A DNA stretch of 18,073 nt, from positions 1 to 18,073 of IMG/VR virus record IMGVR_UViG_2690316325_000011. One strand, given 5' to 3'. The DNA is from a virus. Lineage: Duplodnaviria > Heunggongvirae > Uroviricota > Caudoviricetes. Positions 13,350 through 18,053 of the stretch are shown here, piece after piece; positions within the stretch are counted from its first letter, which is position 1; each line of letters opens with the position of its first letter. Under the pieces are notes generated by a model. That model did no database searches, was not told the origin of the DNA, and was given only the letters and a program-made list of their open reading frames with translations. The position numbers and the translations under genes are program-made.

Positions 13350-13476
13350 TTTTTACCTATACAACAGTAAGTTGAACAACATCTGAGAACGGTATGCACT
13401 TTGTGATTTCCACACACACTGGTTTTGTTAATTAAAACCTGTAGCTTGCAATAAATAACGATAGTGGGCAGAAAAT

Positions 13477-13662
13477 ATGCTAATAGGCTATGTACGCATA
13501 TAGACAAATGAACAAAACACAGCTATGCAGTGAAAAGCACTTGAAAGCGCAGGATGTGAGCTAATTTTTGCGAATAAGGCGAGCAGCAAAAAGGCTGGGC
13601 ACCTTGGGTTAAAAAAGGTTCTGCGTATGCTTTCCAGAGGTGATACCCTAGTCTCGGGCTAG
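13477..13662 (+). pseudogene. Decayed 5' fragment of a Cin-like DNA invertase gene, convergent with the intact invertase
   Basis: Reads MLIGYVRI*TNEQNTAMQ*KALESAGCELIFANKASSKKAGHLGLKKVLRMLSRGDTLV with in-frame stops at 13501 and about 13531, then loses frame after about 13656. It matches the Gin/Cin N-terminus and differs from the neighbouring intact invertase (NEQNTA versus NDQNTD). Right boundary approximate. Confidence 0.6.
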
Positions 13663-13784
13663 GGACAACATTTCGAGGACAGTTTTCATTAGCGGTCAGC
13701 AGGCGCTAGATACATCGAATTGATGTGCCGCGCGATAAATGTACCTATTCTATCAAGATAAATTACACCGACGCGGCATTAGAA

Positions 13785-14357
13785 TTACAGCTCAGATTGA
13801 GTTTGGCGCTTCTCTACAGGATGATAACGATAAATCGTCGATACACCGATATCGTAAATAATTGCCAACTGTTTCCTGCTGTAGCCATTTTCGATCAACC
13901 TCGCTATTTGCTCATGTTGTTCTTTTGTCAACTTCGGGCGACGTCCGCCAATGCGTCCCTGTTCGCGTGCAGCTGCCAGTCCGGCCAGTGTTCTCTCAAC
14001 AATTAATTCACGTTCCATTTCTGCTAAAGCCCCCATGACGTGAAAAAAGAAACGCCCCATGGGTGTTGATGTGTCAATACTGTCTGTCAGACTACGGAAA
14101 TTAACACCTTTTTCCCGCAACTCCTCTATAAGCGTGATAAGGTGTTTCATACTTCTGCCAAGCCTATCCAGCTTCCAGACAACCAGCGTATCTCCTTCTG
14201 ATAACGTTCTGAGCAGCTTTTTCAAGCCTGGTCTGGCTGACTTTGTTCCGCTTATTTTATCTTCAAAAATCAGTTCACATCCTGCGCAGTTCAGTGCATT
14301 TCTTTGTAAATCTGTGTTTTGGTCATTTGTTGACACACGAATGTAGCCAATTTGCAT
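13785..14357 (-). CDS. Site-specific DNA invertase (Hin/Gin/Cin/Pin/Min family serine recombinase)
   Basis: 190 aa from ATG at 14357 (AAGAGG about 9 nt upstream; the track's 14366 start is a TTG). Catalytic N-terminus MQIGYIRVSTNDQNTDLQRNAL, core motifs GDTLVVWKLDRLGRS and SPMGRFFFHVMGALAEMERELIVERT, C-terminal HTH (GVSTIYRY). Adjacent to crossover sites. Confidence 0.93.
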   Translation of the reverse strand: MQIGYIRVSTNDQNTDLQRNALNCAGCELIFEDKISGTKSARPGLKKLLRTLSEGDTLVVWKLDRLGRSMKHLITLIEELREKGVNFRSLTDSIDTSTPMGRFFFHVMGALAEMERELIVERTLAGLAAAREQGRIGGRRPKLTKEQHEQIARLIENGYSRKQLAIIYDIGVSTIYRYHPVEKRQTQSEL

Positions 14358-14411
14358 GAAAAACAACCTCTTTGTTTAGTTAAAAATACATCGTTGGTAT
14401 AGGTAGGGATT

Positions 14412-14437
14412 AAGACTAAAACGTTGGTTTGGGGGAA
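14412..14437 (+). other. Crossover site 1 (26-bp Gin/Cin-type inversion site), in the invertase promoter region
   Basis: AAGACTAAAACG-TT-GGTTTGGGGGAA. The right half and TT core are conserved with the other sites; the left half is divergent. Lies 55 to 80 bp upstream of the invertase ATG. Confidence 0.7.
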
Positions 14438-14890
14438 GGCTCTGCACTGCCTGTTGGTGTGCCCGTTCCGTGGCCCTTAGAAACACCGCCAACGGGGTGG
14501 CTGAAATGTAACGGAGCAGCATTTTCTTCTGAAAAGTACCCAAATCTGGCAAAGGCTTACCCTACTAATAAATTGCCTGATTTACGCGGTGAATTTATTC
14601 GTGGCTGGGATGACGGACGTGGTGTGGATGCCGGGCGACAATTATTATCTTCACAGGGGGATGCAATAAGAAATATTGAGGGATTCGCAGATGGCGGGAT
14701 CGGTATGTCTTTTGATGCAATCAGAGGGGCTTTTTACGATGCAGGAACACGATCAGCGAGAATGCCGAATAACACAACTACTATAGACAAAACCGATGAC
14801 CTTGGATTCGACGCCTCTCGTGTCGTGCCAACAGCTAATGAAAACCGTCCTCGTAATATTGCCTTTAATTATATCGTAAGGGCGGCATAA
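14426..14890 (+). CDS. Promoterless tail-fibre C-terminal (receptor-binding tip) cassette A
   Basis: Coding frame begins at the first base right of the site-1 core, with no ATG or SD (track start is TTG). Conserved 5' module GEGSALPVGVPVPWP..TPPTGWLKCNGAAFSSEKYPNLAK.YPT.KLPDLRGEFIRGWDDGRG (tail-collar-like), variable middle, conserved end RPRNIAFNYIVRAA, stop TAA inside the left half of site 2. Confidence 0.8.
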   Translation, partial: GLGEGSALPVGVPVPWPLETPPTGWLKCNGAAFSSEKYPNLAKAYPTNKLPDLRGEFIRGWDDGRGVDAGRQLLSSQGDAIRNIEGFADGGIGMSFDAIRGAFYDAGTRSARMPNNTTTIDKTDDLGFDASRVVPTANENRPRNIAFNYIVRAA

Positions 14891-14909
14891 AAACGTTGGT
14901 TTGGGGGAA
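14884..14909 (+). other. Crossover site 2
   Basis: GGCATAAAAACG-TT-GGTTTGGGGGAA. The left half contains the cassette A stop codon. Confidence 0.75.
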
Positions 14910-15466
14910 GGCTCATCAGCTCAGTAGTGCCACTAACAGCACGTCTGAAGTGCTGGCCGCCACACCGAAAGCTGTCAAGGCTGCATATGACCTGGCTAAC
15001 GGGAAGTATACAGCCCAGGATGCAACCACGACACAAAAAGGGATAGTTCAGCTCAGTAGCGACACCAACAGCACTTCTGAAACATTAGCTGCAACGCCAA
15101 AAGCGGTTAAAGCTGCATACGATCTAGCAGCCGGAAAGGCACCATCCAGTCATACACATCCCTGGAATCAGATCACTGGTGTGCCAACAGCTTCATTGAC
15201 AGCGAAAGGCATCACTCAGCTCAGTAGTGCCACTAACAGCACGTCTGAAGTGCTGGCCGCTACACCGAAAGCTGTCAAGGCTGCATATGATTTGGCTAAT
15301 GGAAAGCAAGCGGCAGACGCTACGCTCACTGCTCTAGCGGCACTAGCTACCGCAGCAGATAAACTCCCTTATTTCACAGGGGTTGATCGTGCCGCGTTAA
15401 CTGCACTGACAAGTGTTGGACGTGCAATTCTTAGTAAGCCCAGTATTCAGAGCGTTCTTAATTACC
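14898..15466 (+). other. Captured fragment of a tail-fibre constant region carrying three tail-fibre repeat units
   Basis: Open frame encoding three copies of QLSS(A/D)TNSTSE(V/T)LAATPKAVKAAYDLA; nucleotide copies at 14917..14990 and 15217..15290 are identical except for one base. It ends ...LNYL at site 3. From site 2 in the cassette frame the reading is GLGEGSSAQ then stop (TAG 14925..14927), so it is not a functional cassette. Confidence 0.6.
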
Positions 15467-15480
15467 TTGGTTTAGGGGAA
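15455..15480 (+). other. Crossover site 3 (constant/variable junction type; most symmetric site)
   Basis: TTCTTAATTACC-TT-GGTTTAGGGGAA. Left half resembles Gin/Cin-family half-sites (TTC.T..A..ACC) and is coding (LNYL) with no stop, unlike sites 2, 4, 5 and 6. Confidence 0.7.
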
Positions 15481-15975
15481 GGCTCGGCGCTGCCCGTTGG
15501 TGTACCTGTTCCATGGCCCTCAGCCACACCACCAACGGGGTGGCTGAAATGTAACGGAGCAGCATTTTCTTCTGAAAAGTACCCAAATCTGGCAAAGGTT
15601 TACCCAACGTTAAAATTACCTGATTTACGCGGTGAGTTTATCCGTGGTTGGGATGATTCGAGAGGGATTGATACAGGGCGTTCATTGCTAAGTGGTCAGA
15701 CTGCAACATTTATTCGTACAGCTTTGCAGGATTATTACGGTGTCGATCTGACTACTAATGTCAAAGTAGGTATCGCTTATGCTACTGCTGATTCTGTTAT
15801 AACTGTTGGAAACCCTGCTAATCCTAAAGCAGGAGATAATAGCGATTATGTTCCAGCATCATCAGATAACTCCATAACAGGCACTCAAAGGACGGCAGAG
15901 GATAATTTTACCGGGGCATGGATATCAATGCGCCCCCGCAACGTTGCTTTTAATTACATCGTAAGGGCAGCATGA
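15469..15975 (+). CDS. Promoterless tail-fibre C-terminal cassette C (3' part of track ORF 14896..15975)
   Basis: Same conserved 5' module and RPRNVAFNYIVRAA end as the other cassettes; distinct variable middle; stop TGA inside the left half of site 4. Confidence 0.8.
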   Translation, partial: GLGEGSALPVGVPVPWPSATPPTGWLKCNGAAFSSEKYPNLAKVYPTLKLPDLRGEFIRGWDDSRGIDTGRSLLSGQTATFIRTALQDYYGVDLTTNVKVGIAYATADSVITVGNPANPKAGDNSDYVPASSDNSITGTQRTAEDNFTGAWISMRPRNVAFNYIVRAA

Positions 15976-15994
15976 AAACGTTGGTTTGGGGGAA
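15969..15994 (+). other. Crossover site 4
   Basis: AGCATGAAAACG-TT-GGTTTGGGGGAA. Confidence 0.75.
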
Positions 15995-16453
15995 GGCTCA
16001 GCATTGCCCGTTGGCGTGCCCGTTCCGTGGCCATCAGCCACACCTCCAACGGGGTGGCTGAAATGCAATGGTGCAGCATTTTCTTCTGAAAAGTACCCAA
16101 ATCTGGCAAAGGTTTACCCCACTAATAAATTGCCGGATCTACGGGGCGAATTTATTCGCGGCTGGGATGACGGGCGGGGGATTGACTCTGGCCGTAATTT
16201 ATTATCTGCACAGAATGATGCAATTCAGAATATTGTTGGTTCTTTCGGGCGTACTCAGCTTTTTAGAGATGTACTTAGTTCAGGGCCATTTAGTCAACAT
16301 GGTCAAGTATTATCTACAGGCCTAAAGGAAACGGAAATTATTGAGGGTTATGGCTCTTATAACTGGACATTCGACGCCTCTCGCTCAGTTCGTACAGCAT
16401 CTGAAACCCGCCCCCGTAATATTGCGTTTAATTATATCGTAAGGGCGGCATAA
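15983..16453 (+). CDS. Promoterless tail-fibre C-terminal cassette D
   Basis: Conserved 5' module, distinct variable middle, conserved RPRNIAFNYIVRAA end, stop TAA inside site 5. Confidence 0.8.
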   Translation, partial: GLGEGSALPVGVPVPWPSATPPTGWLKCNGAAFSSEKYPNLAKVYPTNKLPDLRGEFIRGWDDGRGIDSGRNLLSAQNDAIQNIVGSFGRTQLFRDVLSSGPFSQHGQVLSTGLKETEIIEGYGSYNWTFDASRSVRTASETRPRNIAFNYIVRAA

Positions 16454-16472
16454 AAACGTTGGTTTGGGAGAA
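16447..16472 (+). other. Crossover site 5
   Basis: GGCATAAAAACG-TT-GGTTTGGGAGAA. Confidence 0.75.
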
Positions 16473-16961
16473 GGCTCTGCATTACCTGTTGGTGTCCCTG
16501 TTCCGTGGCCTTCAGCCACTCCGCCAACAGGCTGGCTGAAATGCAACGGTGCAGCATTTTCTTCTGAAAAGTACCCAAATCTGGCAAAGGTTTACCCCAC
16601 TAATAAATTGCCGGATCTACGGGGCGAATTTATTCGCGGCTGGGATGACGGGCGGGGGATTGATCCAGGTCGCTCTATTTTAAGCGAGCAAGGATATGCA
16701 ACGGAGGATCATGCTCACGGATTACCGTCAAAATCAACCGTAGCAACTGACAGCTCAATTAATTTCTACTTTGACGAGGCATGGGCTACTAGTGGTAATA
16801 CGGGAGTTATCAGATGGGGGAACACAAGCGATGCAGGATTGCCAGCCCCTAATTATGGAACTTTTAAAACATATAAACAGTCCGTAGCTAATTTAGGTAC
16901 TGCTGGCTTAGAAACCCGCCCTCGTAATATTGCATTTAATTATATTGTGAGGGCGGATTAA
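16461..16961 (+). CDS. Promoterless tail-fibre C-terminal cassette E
   Basis: Conserved 5' module (near-identical to cassette D over roughly 120 bp), distinct variable middle containing EDHAHG, end RPRNIAFNYIVRAD. Stop lies 5 bp from the convergent tail-fibre assembly gene stop. Confidence 0.8.
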   Translation, partial: GLGEGSALPVGVPVPWPSATPPTGWLKCNGAAFSSEKYPNLAKVYPTNKLPDLRGEFIRGWDDGRGIDPGRSILSEQGYATEDHAHGLPSKSTVATDSSINFYFDEAWATSGNTGVIRWGNTSDAGLPAPNYGTFKTYKQSVANLGTAGLETRPRNIAFNYIVRAD

Positions 16962-16966
16962 TTATA

Positions 16967-17578
16967 TCAACTGGCTGTAGAAAGTTGTTTTTCAGGCCAG
17001 TTGAGATCTGGTGCCGTGGTTAAATCCATCGCGTTCAGCTCGTCTATATAATCTAGCACGGAGTTAAGCTGCGTGGTTTCTGCCTGCGTCAACTTCCGTC
17101 CAGCCCGTAATTTCAACTGAATCAGACTAATGGAATCCATCGCAGTATCAATCAATGACTGACGTTTTGTTTCTGCTGCCTCTACAGCTGCACTATGTTG
17201 AGCCTCAGTATCAACCACCCATTTCTCTCCATCCCATTTGTCGTATGGTGTTAGCGGGGCGATAGTGGTTGTATTTTCCGGATAGTCACCCAACACCGTG
17301 ATTTCTTCGGGATTCCCTGTGTCAATGCTATAGACAGTTTCGCCACGATGATCTGGCACATACTCCCATGAACTTAAATCCTCTGAACGGAGAATCGCAT
17401 AACCTGCTTTATGTGAGCCTGGAGCATCCAAACAAGAATGTGCCGGAATACCAACGCCAACAGCAAGATATTCAGTTGATGCAGAAATATATTCCCGATT
17501 ACCACCATCATAGTTATAAACGATAATGTTTCCTGCCTGTATGGCTATAAGTTCGCTATTTAATATCGCATTATCCAT
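16967..17578 (-). CDS. Tail-fibre assembly protein (Tfa/U-like chaperone)
   Basis: 203 aa; ATG overlaps the cassette F stop (TAATG), so it is translationally coupled. C-terminal region ...LDYIDELNAMDLTTAPDLNWPEKQ is typical of caudoviral tail-fibre assembly proteins as I recall. It is the only such gene in the window. Confidence 0.8.
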   Translation of the reverse strand: MDNAILNSELIAIQAGNIIVYNYDGGNREYISASTEYLAVGVGIPAHSCLDAPGSHKAGYAILRSEDLSSWEYVPDHRGETVYSIDTGNPEEITVLGDYPENTTTIAPLTPYDKWDGEKWVVDTEAQHSAAVEAAETKRQSLIDTAMDSISLIQLKLRAGRKLTQAETTQLNSVLDYIDELNAMDLTTAPDLNWPEKQLSTAS

Positions 17579-18039
17579 TATGCTGCTCTCACAATATAAT
17601 TGAAGGCAATGTTACGTGGGCGGGTTTCATTCCCCCCAGATAACTCCGTTCTGTATTGACTGGTAAATTTACCATTAATCGCTCCTTCTTGGACGGCGTT
17701 ATCTGTCGACAACAGGCTATCCCCCCCTCTGTCATTTGGCACCAATACCGTGTTATCCCACGCGTCCCATGACCGAATATTATGATAATGACTTCCTGTT
17801 AACCACCCCTGTATGCTTAAGATGACCCTTCCCGCATCCACACCTCGCCCATCATCCCAACCACGGATAAACTCACCGCGTAAATCAGGTAATTTTAACG
17901 TTGGGTAAACCTTTGCCAGATTTGGGTACTTTTCAGAAGAAAATGCTGCGCCATTGCATTTCAGCCACCCCGTTGGCGGTGTTTCTAAGGGCCACGGAAC
18001 GGGCACGCCAACGGGCAGTGCAGAGCCTTCCCCCAAACC
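17578..18039 (-). CDS. Tail-fibre C-terminal cassette F (minus-strand array, followed by the assembly gene)
   Basis: Begins at the core of the inverted site 6; conserved 5' module, distinct variable middle, conserved RPRNIAFNYIVRAA end. Its 5' module is a patchwork of A-like and C-like sequence. Confidence 0.8.
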   Translation of the reverse strand, partial: GLGEGSALPVGVPVPWPLETPPTGWLKCNGAAFSSEKYPNLAKVYPTLKLPDLRGEFIRGWDDGRGVDAGRVILSIQGWLTGSHYHNIRSWDAWDNTVLVPNDRGGDSLLSTDNAVQEGAINGKFTSQYRTELSGGNETRPRNIAFNYIVRAA

Positions 18040-18053
18040 AACGTTTTTATGCC
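18028..18053 (-). other. Crossover site 6, inverted relative to sites 1-5
   Basis: Reverse complement reads GGCATAAAAACG-TT-GGTTTGGGGGAA. Its left half contains the stop codon of a further minus-strand cassette. Confidence 0.75.

What the first reader, a model, noticed from the sequence alone, without database searches (positions are those of the whole stretch)
14358..14437. Crossover site 1 lies in the invertase promoter region
Site 1 sits 55 to 80 bp upstream of the invertase ATG, and its left half is the only one with non-cassette, non-constant sequence. Recombinase binding there could autoregulate invertase expression, and inversions through site 1 would change what lies upstream of the invertase gene.
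Basis: inference. Interest (0 to 1): 0.35.

Follow-up and report, generated by a model that had tools for sequence, protein, structure and literature searches.

The report
Boundary crossover site upstream of invertase
This is the ordinary boundary recombination site of a known tail-fibre shuffling system (the p15B "Min" type) on a P1-like phage-plasmid, placed just upstream of the invertase gene as in phage Mu; self-regulation of the invertase through it is plausible but untested.

Summary
A 26-bp crossover site (14412-14437, central TT at 14424-25) lies 55-80 bp upstream of the ATG (14357, minus strand) of a Gin-like serine invertase. It is one of six such sites in the window. Only its invertase-side half is unique non-coding DNA.

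It is the invertase-proximal boundary site of a p15B Min-type multiple-inversion tail-fibre region on a P1-like E. coli phage-plasmid. It corresponds to the G-segment boundary next to gin in Mu, which has the same 66-67 bp spacing.

Related plasmids with an identical invertase-side flank carry at least four different cassettes beyond the central TT. The site is therefore used in nature.

The position is family-wide. Across 25 unalignable spacer lineages, the site-to-gene distance falls in classes about 10.5 bp apart (55, 66, 76.5, 87). This fits helical phasing with the Fis enhancer inside the invertase 5' coding region.

Only a weak promoter is predictable (-10 TATTTT 14388-14383). Its -35 abuts the site, so autoregulation is plausible but unproven.

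Inversion barely changes the upstream sequence, because cassette heads are conserved.

Verdict: a known architecture, of low novelty.

The parts
14412..14437 (.). Crossover site 1: 26 bp, AAGACTAAAACG-TT-GGTTTGGGGGAA. This is the invertase-proximal boundary site of the invertible region. The strand-exchange dinucleotide TT is at 14424-14425.
   Evidence: Natural isomers have a breakpoint here.
13785..14357 (-). DNA invertase gene (190 aa, Gin/Min-type serine recombinase), transcribed away from the invertible region.
   Evidence: translation. (Resolvase 2e-51, HTH_7 3e-15). (Gin structures 3UJ3/4M6F, E~1e-92). (72% identity to Mu Gin, 74% to P1 Cin).
14408..14413 (-). Candidate -35 hexamer TTAATC. 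It is weak, has a 19-bp spacer to TATTTT (or 17 bp to TGTATT), and overlaps the outer 2 bp of site 1.
   Evidence: PWM scan (4.3 bits); coordinates. Inference only.
14383..14388 (-). Candidate -10 hexamer TATTTT. It occupies the same position as the extended -10 TGGCATCAT/TGGCATGAT of Pin-like and Mu gin loci. The predicted TSS is near 14376 (inferred from the -10 position, not computed).
   Evidence: Invariant in the 9 length-matched of the 11 unique sequences of this lineage. Inference only.
14367..14372 (-). Shine-Dalgarno AAGAGG, 9 nt before the ATG.
14268..14339 (-). Homologue of the recombinational (Fis) enhancer annotated at +19..+90 of P1 cin. Fis-type 15-mers lie at 14336-14322 and 14287-14273. 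The centre of the proximal one is about 95.5 bp from the centre of site 1.
   Evidence: P1 annotation; alignment and coordinates; conservation.
14884..14909 (+). Crossover site 2. The left half is the cassette-1 3' end with its stop codon.
15455..15480 (+). Internal variant site TTCTTAATTACC-TT-GGTTTAGGGGAA. It lies inside the 359-aa ORF, and its left half is tail-fibre coding sequence.
15969..15994 (+). Crossover site 3.
16447..16472 (+). Crossover site 4 (right half GGTTTGGGAGAA; the core is identical to the e14 P-segment repeat).
   Evidence: PMC12529663.
18028..18053 (-). Crossover site 5. It is the only site in the window inverted relative to site 1, and so is a possible inversion partner. 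More sites must lie beyond the window end.
   Evidence: (I5).
14426..16961 (+). Four silent tail-fibre C-terminal cassettes (ORFs 14429-14890, 14896-15975, 15986-16453, 16464-16961). Each has a Collar domain. The second also carries three Phage_fiber_2 repeats.
16967..18036 (-). A cassette in the opposite orientation (17578-18036) followed by a tail-fibre assembly gene (16967-17578).
13390..13655 (+). Pseudo-cin: the P1 cin promoter region plus the first ~178 bp of cin (start at 13477), with in-frame stops and truncated. It shows that the Min-type module replaced a P1-type cin.

Best explanation
Site 1 is the invertase-proximal boundary crossover site of a Min-type (plasmid p15B) multiple-inversion system. 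The system shuffles tail-fibre C-terminal cassettes on a P1-like E. coli phage-plasmid.

A dimer of the Gin-like serine invertase binds the 26-bp site. With a partner site in inverted orientation and the Fis-bound enhancer inside the invertase 5' coding region, it exchanges strands at the central TT. The invertase-side half-site, the promoter and the gene always stay put. Everything distal to 14424/25 is exchangeable.

The position of the site, 66 bp before the start codon, is the family-wide layout (as in Mu, G boundary to gin). I infer it is fixed mainly by two constraints. First, the site must lie a whole number of helical turns (about 9, ~95 bp) from the proximal Fis site. Second, the invertase promoter must stay on the non-invertible side. 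The promoter is therefore squeezed into the 54-bp spacer.

The only predictable promoter is weak (-10 TATTTT 14388-14383), and its -35 abuts or overlaps the outer edge of the site. Invertase bound at site 1 would then cover about -36 to -61 relative to the predicted start. It most likely dampens its own transcription.

Shown: site identity, layout, natural use as a crossover point, and the conserved quantised spacing. Inferred: promoter position, the phasing rationale, and autorepression.
For: Site and repeats. Invertase family.

Context is P1-like (darA operon, lydAB, tail-fibre operon). The window is collinear with p15B: it has a pseudo-cin next to an invertase of reversed orientation, the P1 record cross-references p15B X62121, and PMC6906374 describes a plasmid invertase 98.5% identical to p15B Min (X62121) that lies in reverse orientation to P1 cin.

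Same layout in Mu: G boundary 35025, gin start 35092.

Family-wide spacing: 82 of 85 loci have 65-67 bp. Among 162 unique sequences in 25 spacer clusters below 65% identity, distances were 64-67 (7 clusters), 75-77 (13), 86-87, 55, 94, 118 and 140, with none at 68-74 or 78-85. The best period is 10.5 bp, R=0.88. The enhancer homologue is conserved at a fixed coding position.

Natural crossover use: loci with an identical 40-nt invertase-side flank carry the window's internal cassette (99%), c5 (97%), c3 (96-98%), c1 (99%) or unknown cassettes. The breakpoint lies within TT plus 6 nt. Several contigs break 74-88 bp upstream of the invertase gene.

Promoter. There is no better candidate in the 100 bp distal to the site.

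Precedents, from established knowledge rather than tested here: Tn3/gamma-delta resolvase represses tnpA/tnpR by binding res, and Hin invertasome assembly depends on helical phasing at short hix-enhancer distances (Haykinson & Johnson 1993; title seen).
Against: There are no transcript-start or expression data.

Promoter scores are low (about 4-6 bits), and the simple consensus scan found nothing on this strand.

The invertase-side half-site (AAGACTAAAACG) is a poor match in its outer 4-5 bases to the TTxTC..AAACC-type half-sites of sister lineages. Occupancy next to the promoter may therefore be weak.

P1 cin has its cix site at the 3' end of the gene and none in its promoter, so site-mediated autoregulation is not essential to the family.

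The spacing classes are phylogenetically non-independent. Collapsed to 7 distance classes, the phasing signal is only p~0.013, and one lineage (94 bp) is out of phase.

Homologous recombination between the ~200-bp conserved cassette heads could mimic some site-1 exchanges. Mosaic heads are seen.
Confidence: 0.7

Rival explanations
1. The site sits in the promoter primarily as an operator, and inversions through it rewire invertase expression, because each inversion brings different upstream DNA to the promoter.
For: The site abuts the predicted -35. Distal DNA does change between isomers. One cassette (c2, 14896+) diverges completely after 17 bp, so it could provide a different UP-element context.
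Against: The first 17 bp distal to the crossover are 88-100% identical between all six cassettes, and the next 83 bp are 82-94% identical in five of the six. The -35/UP context is therefore nearly constant. P1 cin lacks a promoter-linked site. The ~10.5-bp quantised spacing to the coding region is not predicted by an operator-only role.
Confidence: 0.15
2. There is no functional promoter in the spacer. The invertase is made by read-through of the tail-fibre operon transcript, which runs on the same strand through the antisense of the silent cassettes. On this view site 1 lies in an intercistronic leader and has only a recombination role.
For: The tail-fibre assembly gene and the invertase are on the same strand. 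No terminator-like site is predicted on the minus strand between 16967 and 14357. Promoter candidates are weak.
Against: Different isomers are found in plasmid prophages, which implies invertase expression in the lysogen, when late genes are presumably off (general P1 biology, not tested here). A -10-like element is kept at a fixed offset from the site in many otherwise unalignable lineages. Read-through and a weak own promoter are not mutually exclusive.
Confidence: 0.12
3. Site 1 is an inert relic or a chance copy of the cassette-head repeat, and is not used for recombination.
For: Its invertase-side half-site is degenerate in the outer bases.
Against: Identical invertase-side flanks are joined to at least four different known cassettes, with breakpoints at the central TT. 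A site is conserved at this position in 82 of 85 related loci. Assemblies break there.
Confidence: 0.03

Closest known systems
Min multiple DNA inversion system of E. coli 15T- plasmid p15B (Sandmeier, Iida, Arber and colleagues, 1990-92; sequence X62121)
   Same: Both sit on a P1-related plasmid prophage. Both have more than two crossover sites giving overlapping invertible segments, with alternative tail-fibre 3' ends. In both, the invertase is reversed relative to P1 cin and sits beside a truncated cin. The window is collinear with the p15B segments cross-referenced in the P1 record. PMC6906374 describes an invertase in a related P1-like plasmid that is 98.5% identical to p15B Min and lies in reverse orientation to P1 cin.
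   Different: The p15B sequence itself could not be retrieved, so identity was not measured. Cassette content and order differ among present-day plasmids. The window holds six sites and is cut before the expressed end.
Phage Mu Gin, with the G-segment right boundary (gix) next to gin
   Same: The crossover point is 66-67 bp upstream of the invertase start. The invertase is transcribed away from the invertible segment. The enhancer lies in the 5' coding region. The invertase is 72% identical.
   Different: Mu has two sites and one segment. Its core is CCGAGG rather than CCAACG. The spacer sequence is unalignable with the window, and its -10 is an extended TGGCATGAT type.
e14 Pin and P2-like prophage invertases
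   Same: The site core is the same (TTGGTTTGGGAGAAGG, as in site 4 of the window). The spacing to the start is 66-67 bp. The cassettes are Collar-domain tail-fibre ends.
   Different: These systems have a single invertible segment and a different spacer lineage. Their invertase-side half-site (TTTTCTTAAACG) is a much better match to the consensus.
Phage P1 Cin/cix
   Same: Same genomic neighbourhood (lydABC, darA operon, S/R tail-fibre operon). Homologous enhancer and invertase (74% identity).
   Different: cin points toward the C segment, cixL overlaps its 3' end, and the annotated cin promoters are not near any cix site.
Tn3/gamma-delta resolvase at res (autoregulation); Salmonella Hin at hixL
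   Same: A serine recombinase binds its own recombination site next to its own promoter. In Hin, the recombination site lies just upstream of the gene, with the enhancer in the 5' coding region (from established knowledge; Hin autoregulation is recalled from memory only).
   Different: Repression has been shown experimentally for resolvase. Nothing is shown for this element. res has three subsites and no Fis enhancer, and hin lies inside its invertible segment.

Membership tests
Gin/Hin/Cin/Pin-type DNA inversion system (serine invertase) | Small serine recombinase with an N-terminal resolvase catalytic domain and a C-terminal HTH | tested here: met
   Pfam Resolvase 2e-51 and HTH_7 3e-15. Gin crystal-structure sequences at E~1e-92.
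Gin/Hin/Cin/Pin-type DNA inversion system (serine invertase) | 26-bp crossover sites: two imperfect 12-bp half-sites around a 2-bp core that is identical in partner sites | tested here: met
   Six sites, all with core TT. The right halves are GGTTT(G/A)GG(G/A)GAA. This matches the published consensus quoted in PMC4134206.
Gin/Hin/Cin/Pin-type DNA inversion system (serine invertase) | Partner sites in inverted orientation flanking the invertible DNA | tested here: met
   Site 5 (18028-18053) is inverted relative to sites 1-4. The expressed end lies outside the window.
Gin/Hin/Cin/Pin-type DNA inversion system (serine invertase) | Fis-dependent recombinational enhancer in cis | tested here: inconclusive
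   There is a sequence homologue of the enhancer annotated in P1 cin at the same coding position. Fis binding and function cannot be tested with these tools.
Min-type multiple inversion system (p15B) | More than two crossover sites creating overlapping invertible segments with several alternative tail-fibre 3' ends | tested here: met
   Six sites and five Collar-domain cassettes in the window. Different cassette orders occur in related plasmids.
Min-type multiple inversion system (p15B) | Invertase reversed relative to P1 cin, adjacent to a cin remnant | tested here: met
   Pseudo-cin at 13390-13655 (+) and the invertase at 13785-14357 (-). P1 record cross-references to p15B. PMC6906374.
Min-type multiple inversion system (p15B) | Near-identity of the invertase to Min of p15B (X62121) | not testable with these tools
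   The p15B record and the Sandmeier papers were not available.
Autoregulated recombinase promoter (res/tnpR-like operator) | Recombinase binding site overlaps the core promoter of its own gene | tested here: inconclusive
   The predicted -35 (14413-14408) overlaps the site by 2 bp. The prediction is weak, although the position recurs across lineages. No TSS data.
Autoregulated recombinase promoter (res/tnpR-like operator) | Recombinase-dependent change in transcription | not testable with these tools
   This needs reporter or RNA experiments.

The most novel reading that the evidence does not exclude
Across the Gin/Pin/Min family, the boundary crossover site, the invertase promoter and the Fis enhancer may form one phase-locked module. 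The site-to-enhancer distance is quantised in whole helical turns (about 84.5, 95.5, 106 and 116.5 bp), and the -35 always abuts the site. Invertase occupancy of this one site would then set the enzyme's own synthesis. Conversely, RNA polymerase at the promoter would gate use of the boundary site relative to the internal sites of a multi-site system. This would bias which tail-fibre isomers arise.
Probability: 0.25. Interest if true: 0.45.

Novelty: already known. Interest (0 to 1): 0.2.

Why it matters
The practical value is mainly for annotation. It identifies the fixed boundary of the invertible tail-fibre region in a very common family of E. coli phage-plasmids. It explains why assemblies break or differ there. 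It also shows that the invertase gene and its control region are never inverted.

If autorepression holds, it would help explain why invertase levels and switching rates stay low in lysogens.

The comparative by-product is modest but testable: the ~10.5-bp quantised site-to-enhancer spacing, with a -10 element at a fixed offset from the site. It is a natural-variation counterpart to the phasing experiments done on Hin.

Tried and rejected

2. Primary literature on Min, Gin, Cin and Hin promoters or autoregulation: the papers are not held. Full-text searches gave nothing relevant. Statements about Hin autoregulation therefore rest on memory and are marked as such.

3. The idea that the invertase-side flank is a decayed cassette 3' end, suggested by repeat family D1 and the MAFFT alignment. 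Rejected: local alignment scores are no better than shuffles.

4. A second, tandem pseudo-site (core CGTTGGT at 14392-14398, 30 bp from the core of site 1). Rejected as functional: the core is not kept in sister lineages (AGTTGG or GCTGG).

5. A structured RNA or known RNA family in the leader. None found (z = +1.5).

6. A consensus sigma-70 promoter on the invertase strand, either in 14358-14520 or in the cassette head. None found. Only weak PWM candidates appear.

Full report
**1. What is at the coordinates**

The window's only recombinase gene runs on the minus strand from ATG 14357 to the stop at 13785. An AAGAGG ribosome-binding site lies 9 nt before the ATG. The 190-aa product has the Resolvase and HTH_7 domains. 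It matches the crystallised Mu Gin sequences at E~1e-92, and is 72% identical to Mu Gin and 74% to P1 Cin.

A 26-bp crossover-type site, AAGACTAAAACG-TT-GGTTTGGGGGAA, lies at 14412-14437. The 24-nt core repeat occurs five times with at most one mismatch, against zero in 200 shuffles.

With a variant copy, the window holds six sites, all with central TT:
- Plus strand: 14412-14437, 14884-14909, 15455-15480 (variant), 15969-15994 and 16447-16472.
- Minus strand: 18028-18053.

Sites 2-5 have a cassette 3' end, including the stop codon, as their left half. The internal variant has tail-fibre coding sequence. Only site 1 has unique non-coding DNA on its left. That DNA is not a decayed cassette end.

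**2. What the locus is**

To the left of the invertase lie the P1 darA operon and the lydA/B/C holin genes. To the right are Collar-domain tail-fibre C-terminal cassettes and a tail-fibre assembly gene. The closest database relatives are about 90-100 kb non-mobilizable E. coli plasmids, that is, P1-like phage-plasmids.

Between lydC and the invertase lies a truncated pseudo-cin (13390-13655). It consists of the P1 cin promoter plus about 178 bp of cin with stop codons, and it points the opposite way to the active invertase.

The annotated P1 record cross-references the same pieces to plasmid p15B (X62121) in the same order. PMC6906374 describes a Min-like invertase in a P1-like plasmid as 'complement', meaning reversed relative to P1 cin.

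Multiple sites, several alternative 3' ends and a reversed invertase beside a cin remnant together define the Min multiple-inversion system of p15B. I could not retrieve p15B itself to measure identity.

**3. Site 1 is a real, used crossover site**

Among IMG/VR, GTDB and RefSeq loci that share an identical 40-nt invertase-side flank, the DNA beyond the central dinucleotide varies:
- the window's internal cassette (99% identity; L001, L004, L085);
- the cassette that sits at 18041 in the window (97%; L003);
- cassette 3 (96-98%; L005, L185);
- cassette 1 (99%; L084);
- cassettes absent from the window (L006-L008, L184).

In L001 the switch from invertase-side sequence to the internal cassette's own sequence happens between G14423 and the A/G polymorphism 6 nt beyond the TT. 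That is as precise as the sequences allow, and it is what strand exchange at the central TT predicts.

Some heads are mosaics (L004, L084). Gene conversion or homologous exchange within the conserved ~200-bp cassette heads therefore also occurs. Several draft contigs end 74-88 bp upstream of a related invertase gene, which is the expected assembly break at such a site.

**4. The position is the family's standard layout**

In 82 of 85 loci encoding invertases 84-100% identical to this one, a crossover core lies 65-67 bp before the start codon. The exceptions are P1 cin, a truncated contig and one rearranged locus. The Mu record gives G-segment boundary 35025 and gin start 35092.

I then added more distant invertases. 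I measured from the crossover centre to the codon aligned with residue 1, which is an anchor fixed relative to the coding sequence. This gave 162 unique sequences in 25 spacer clusters that are less than 65% identical to each other.

The distances were 64-67 (7 clusters), 75-77 (13), 86-87 (1), 55 (1), 94, 118 and 140 (1 each). None fell at 68-74 or 78-85. A periodicity scan peaks at 10.5 bp (R=0.88). With the most conservative collapse to seven distance classes, R=0.79 and p~0.013.

The P1 record annotates the recombinational enhancer at +19..+90 of cin. The window's invertase has the homologous stretch at 14339-14268, with Fis-type 15-mers centred near 14329 and 14280. The centre of site 1 is thus about 95.5 bp from the proximal Fis site. 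The other classes give about 84.5, 106 and 116.5 bp.

The simplest reading is inference, supported by the known phasing dependence of Hin invertasome assembly at short distances. I saw the Haykinson & Johnson 1993 title; the content is from my own knowledge. On this reading the site must face the enhancer, so spacer length is conserved or changes by whole turns while the spacer sequence drifts.

**5. Is it in the promoter?**

Everything beyond 14424/25 is invertible DNA whose adjacent cassette is read away from the invertase. A constant promoter must therefore lie in the 54-nt spacer. The simple consensus scan finds none on this strand.

A position-weight scan gives only weak candidates. The best is -10 TATTTT (14388-14383) with -35 TTAATC (14413-14408), or TGTATT with a 17-bp spacer. 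It scores about 4 bits.

The support is positional recurrence. Pin-like and Mu gin spacers carry an extended -10 (TGGCATCAT, TGGCATGAT) at the same place. In 13 of 25 spacer clusters the best -10-like hexamer starts 21-26 nt from the outer edge of the site. This holds in both the 66-bp and the 77-bp classes, where the extra turn is added downstream of the -10.

That places the -35 directly against the site, or 1-2 bp into it. An invertase dimer on site 1 would cover roughly -36 to -61 relative to a start near 14376.

So 'the site lies in the invertase promoter region' is a reasonable inference, and steric interference with sigma region 4 or the alpha-CTD is plausible. Repression is the likelier sign, by analogy with resolvase at res (established) and, from memory only, Hin at hixL. 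None of this is demonstrated here.

Points against a strong effect:
- The invertase-side half-site of this lineage (AAGACTAAAACG) is degenerate in its outer bases compared with sister lineages (TTTTCTTAAACG).
- P1 cin manages without any promoter-linked site.

**6. Does inversion change invertase expression?**

Probably not much. The first 17 bp beyond the crossover are 88-100% identical between all six cassettes. The next 83 bp are 82-94% identical in five of them. Only the long cassette (14896+) diverges.

Read-through from the tail-fibre operon is a possible extra source of invertase mRNA. That operon is on the same strand, and no terminator is predicted between 16967 and 14357. It cannot easily explain switching in lysogens.

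**7. Comparison and verdict**

The element works like, and by every testable criterion belongs to, the Gin/Pin/Min class of Fis-enhancer-dependent serine-invertase systems. Its organisation is that of p15B Min, and site 1 is the counterpart of the gin-proximal G boundary of Mu. Novelty is low.

The one thing that may be worth a specialist's attention is the comparative pattern: the quantised site-to-enhancer spacing and a -10 element locked to the site edge. I could not find this stated in the literature available to me, and it is directly testable with spacing mutants.

**8. What led nowhere**

- Read data were unavailable.
- The old primary papers are not held.
- No Rfam hit or stable RNA fold was found in the leader.
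- The pseudo-core at 14392-14398 is not conserved.

Noticed in passing
window 13390-13655 (+): Pseudo-cin: the P1 cin promoter region and the first ~178 bp of cin (start 13477), with in-frame stops, truncated near 13655. It keeps a near-intact copy of the P1cin promoter region and at least the distal Fis-type 15-mer of a second enhancer copy (13547). If that promoter is active, transcription would run convergently, antisense, into the 3' end of the active invertase gene.
   Followed up: partly
window 13666-13701: An inverted fragment resembling a cassette 3' end (83% complementary to 14826-14861) sits between pseudo-cin and the invertase stop codon. It looks like a scar of the event that replaced the P1-type cin/C-segment boundary with the Min-type module.
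   Followed up: no
window 14896-15975 with internal site 15455-15480: Cassette 2 is composite. After site 2 come three Phage_fiber_2 repeats (direct repeats at 14916, 15048 and 15216). Next is a second, variant crossover site whose left half is coding sequence (…LNYL), like the constant part of the tail-fibre gene. A normal Collar cassette follows. This amounts to a nested module that could lengthen the fibre shaft when selected.
   Followed up: partly
L004, L084 versus window 14426-14460 and 15469-15500: Cassette heads are mosaics between isolates. For example, the first ~30 nt are of window cassette-1 type, joined to a body 99% identical to the internal cassette, and the reverse also occurs. 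This suggests localized conversion or homologous exchange next to the crossover sites.
   Followed up: partly
Loci L085-L314: The distance from the crossover centre to the invertase coding anchor falls in classes about 10.5 bp apart (55, 64-67, 75-77, 86-87; none at 68-74 or 78-85) across 25 unalignable spacer lineages. One lineage, at 94 bp, is out of phase.
   Followed up: yes
window 16447-16472 (site 4) and the other sites: The core of site 4, TTGGTTTGGGAGAAGG, is identical to the inverted repeat of the e14 P segment, which PinE, PinQ and PinR invert in E. coli K-12 (PMC12529663). Chromosomal Pin invertases of the host could therefore act on this plasmid's sites in trans, and the plasmid's invertase could act on e14.
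   Followed up: no
window 14392-14398: A second copy of the 7-bp core CGTTGGT lies 30 bp from the core of site 1, inside the spacer (ACATCGTTGGTATAGG). It is not conserved in sister lineages, so it is probably chance.
   Followed up: yes
window 18048-18073 (window end): The window ends inside the 3' end of yet another minus-strand cassette (51 nt, 100% complementary to 14864-14914). The invertible region therefore continues, and the expressed tail-fibre junction is outside the window.
   Followed up: no
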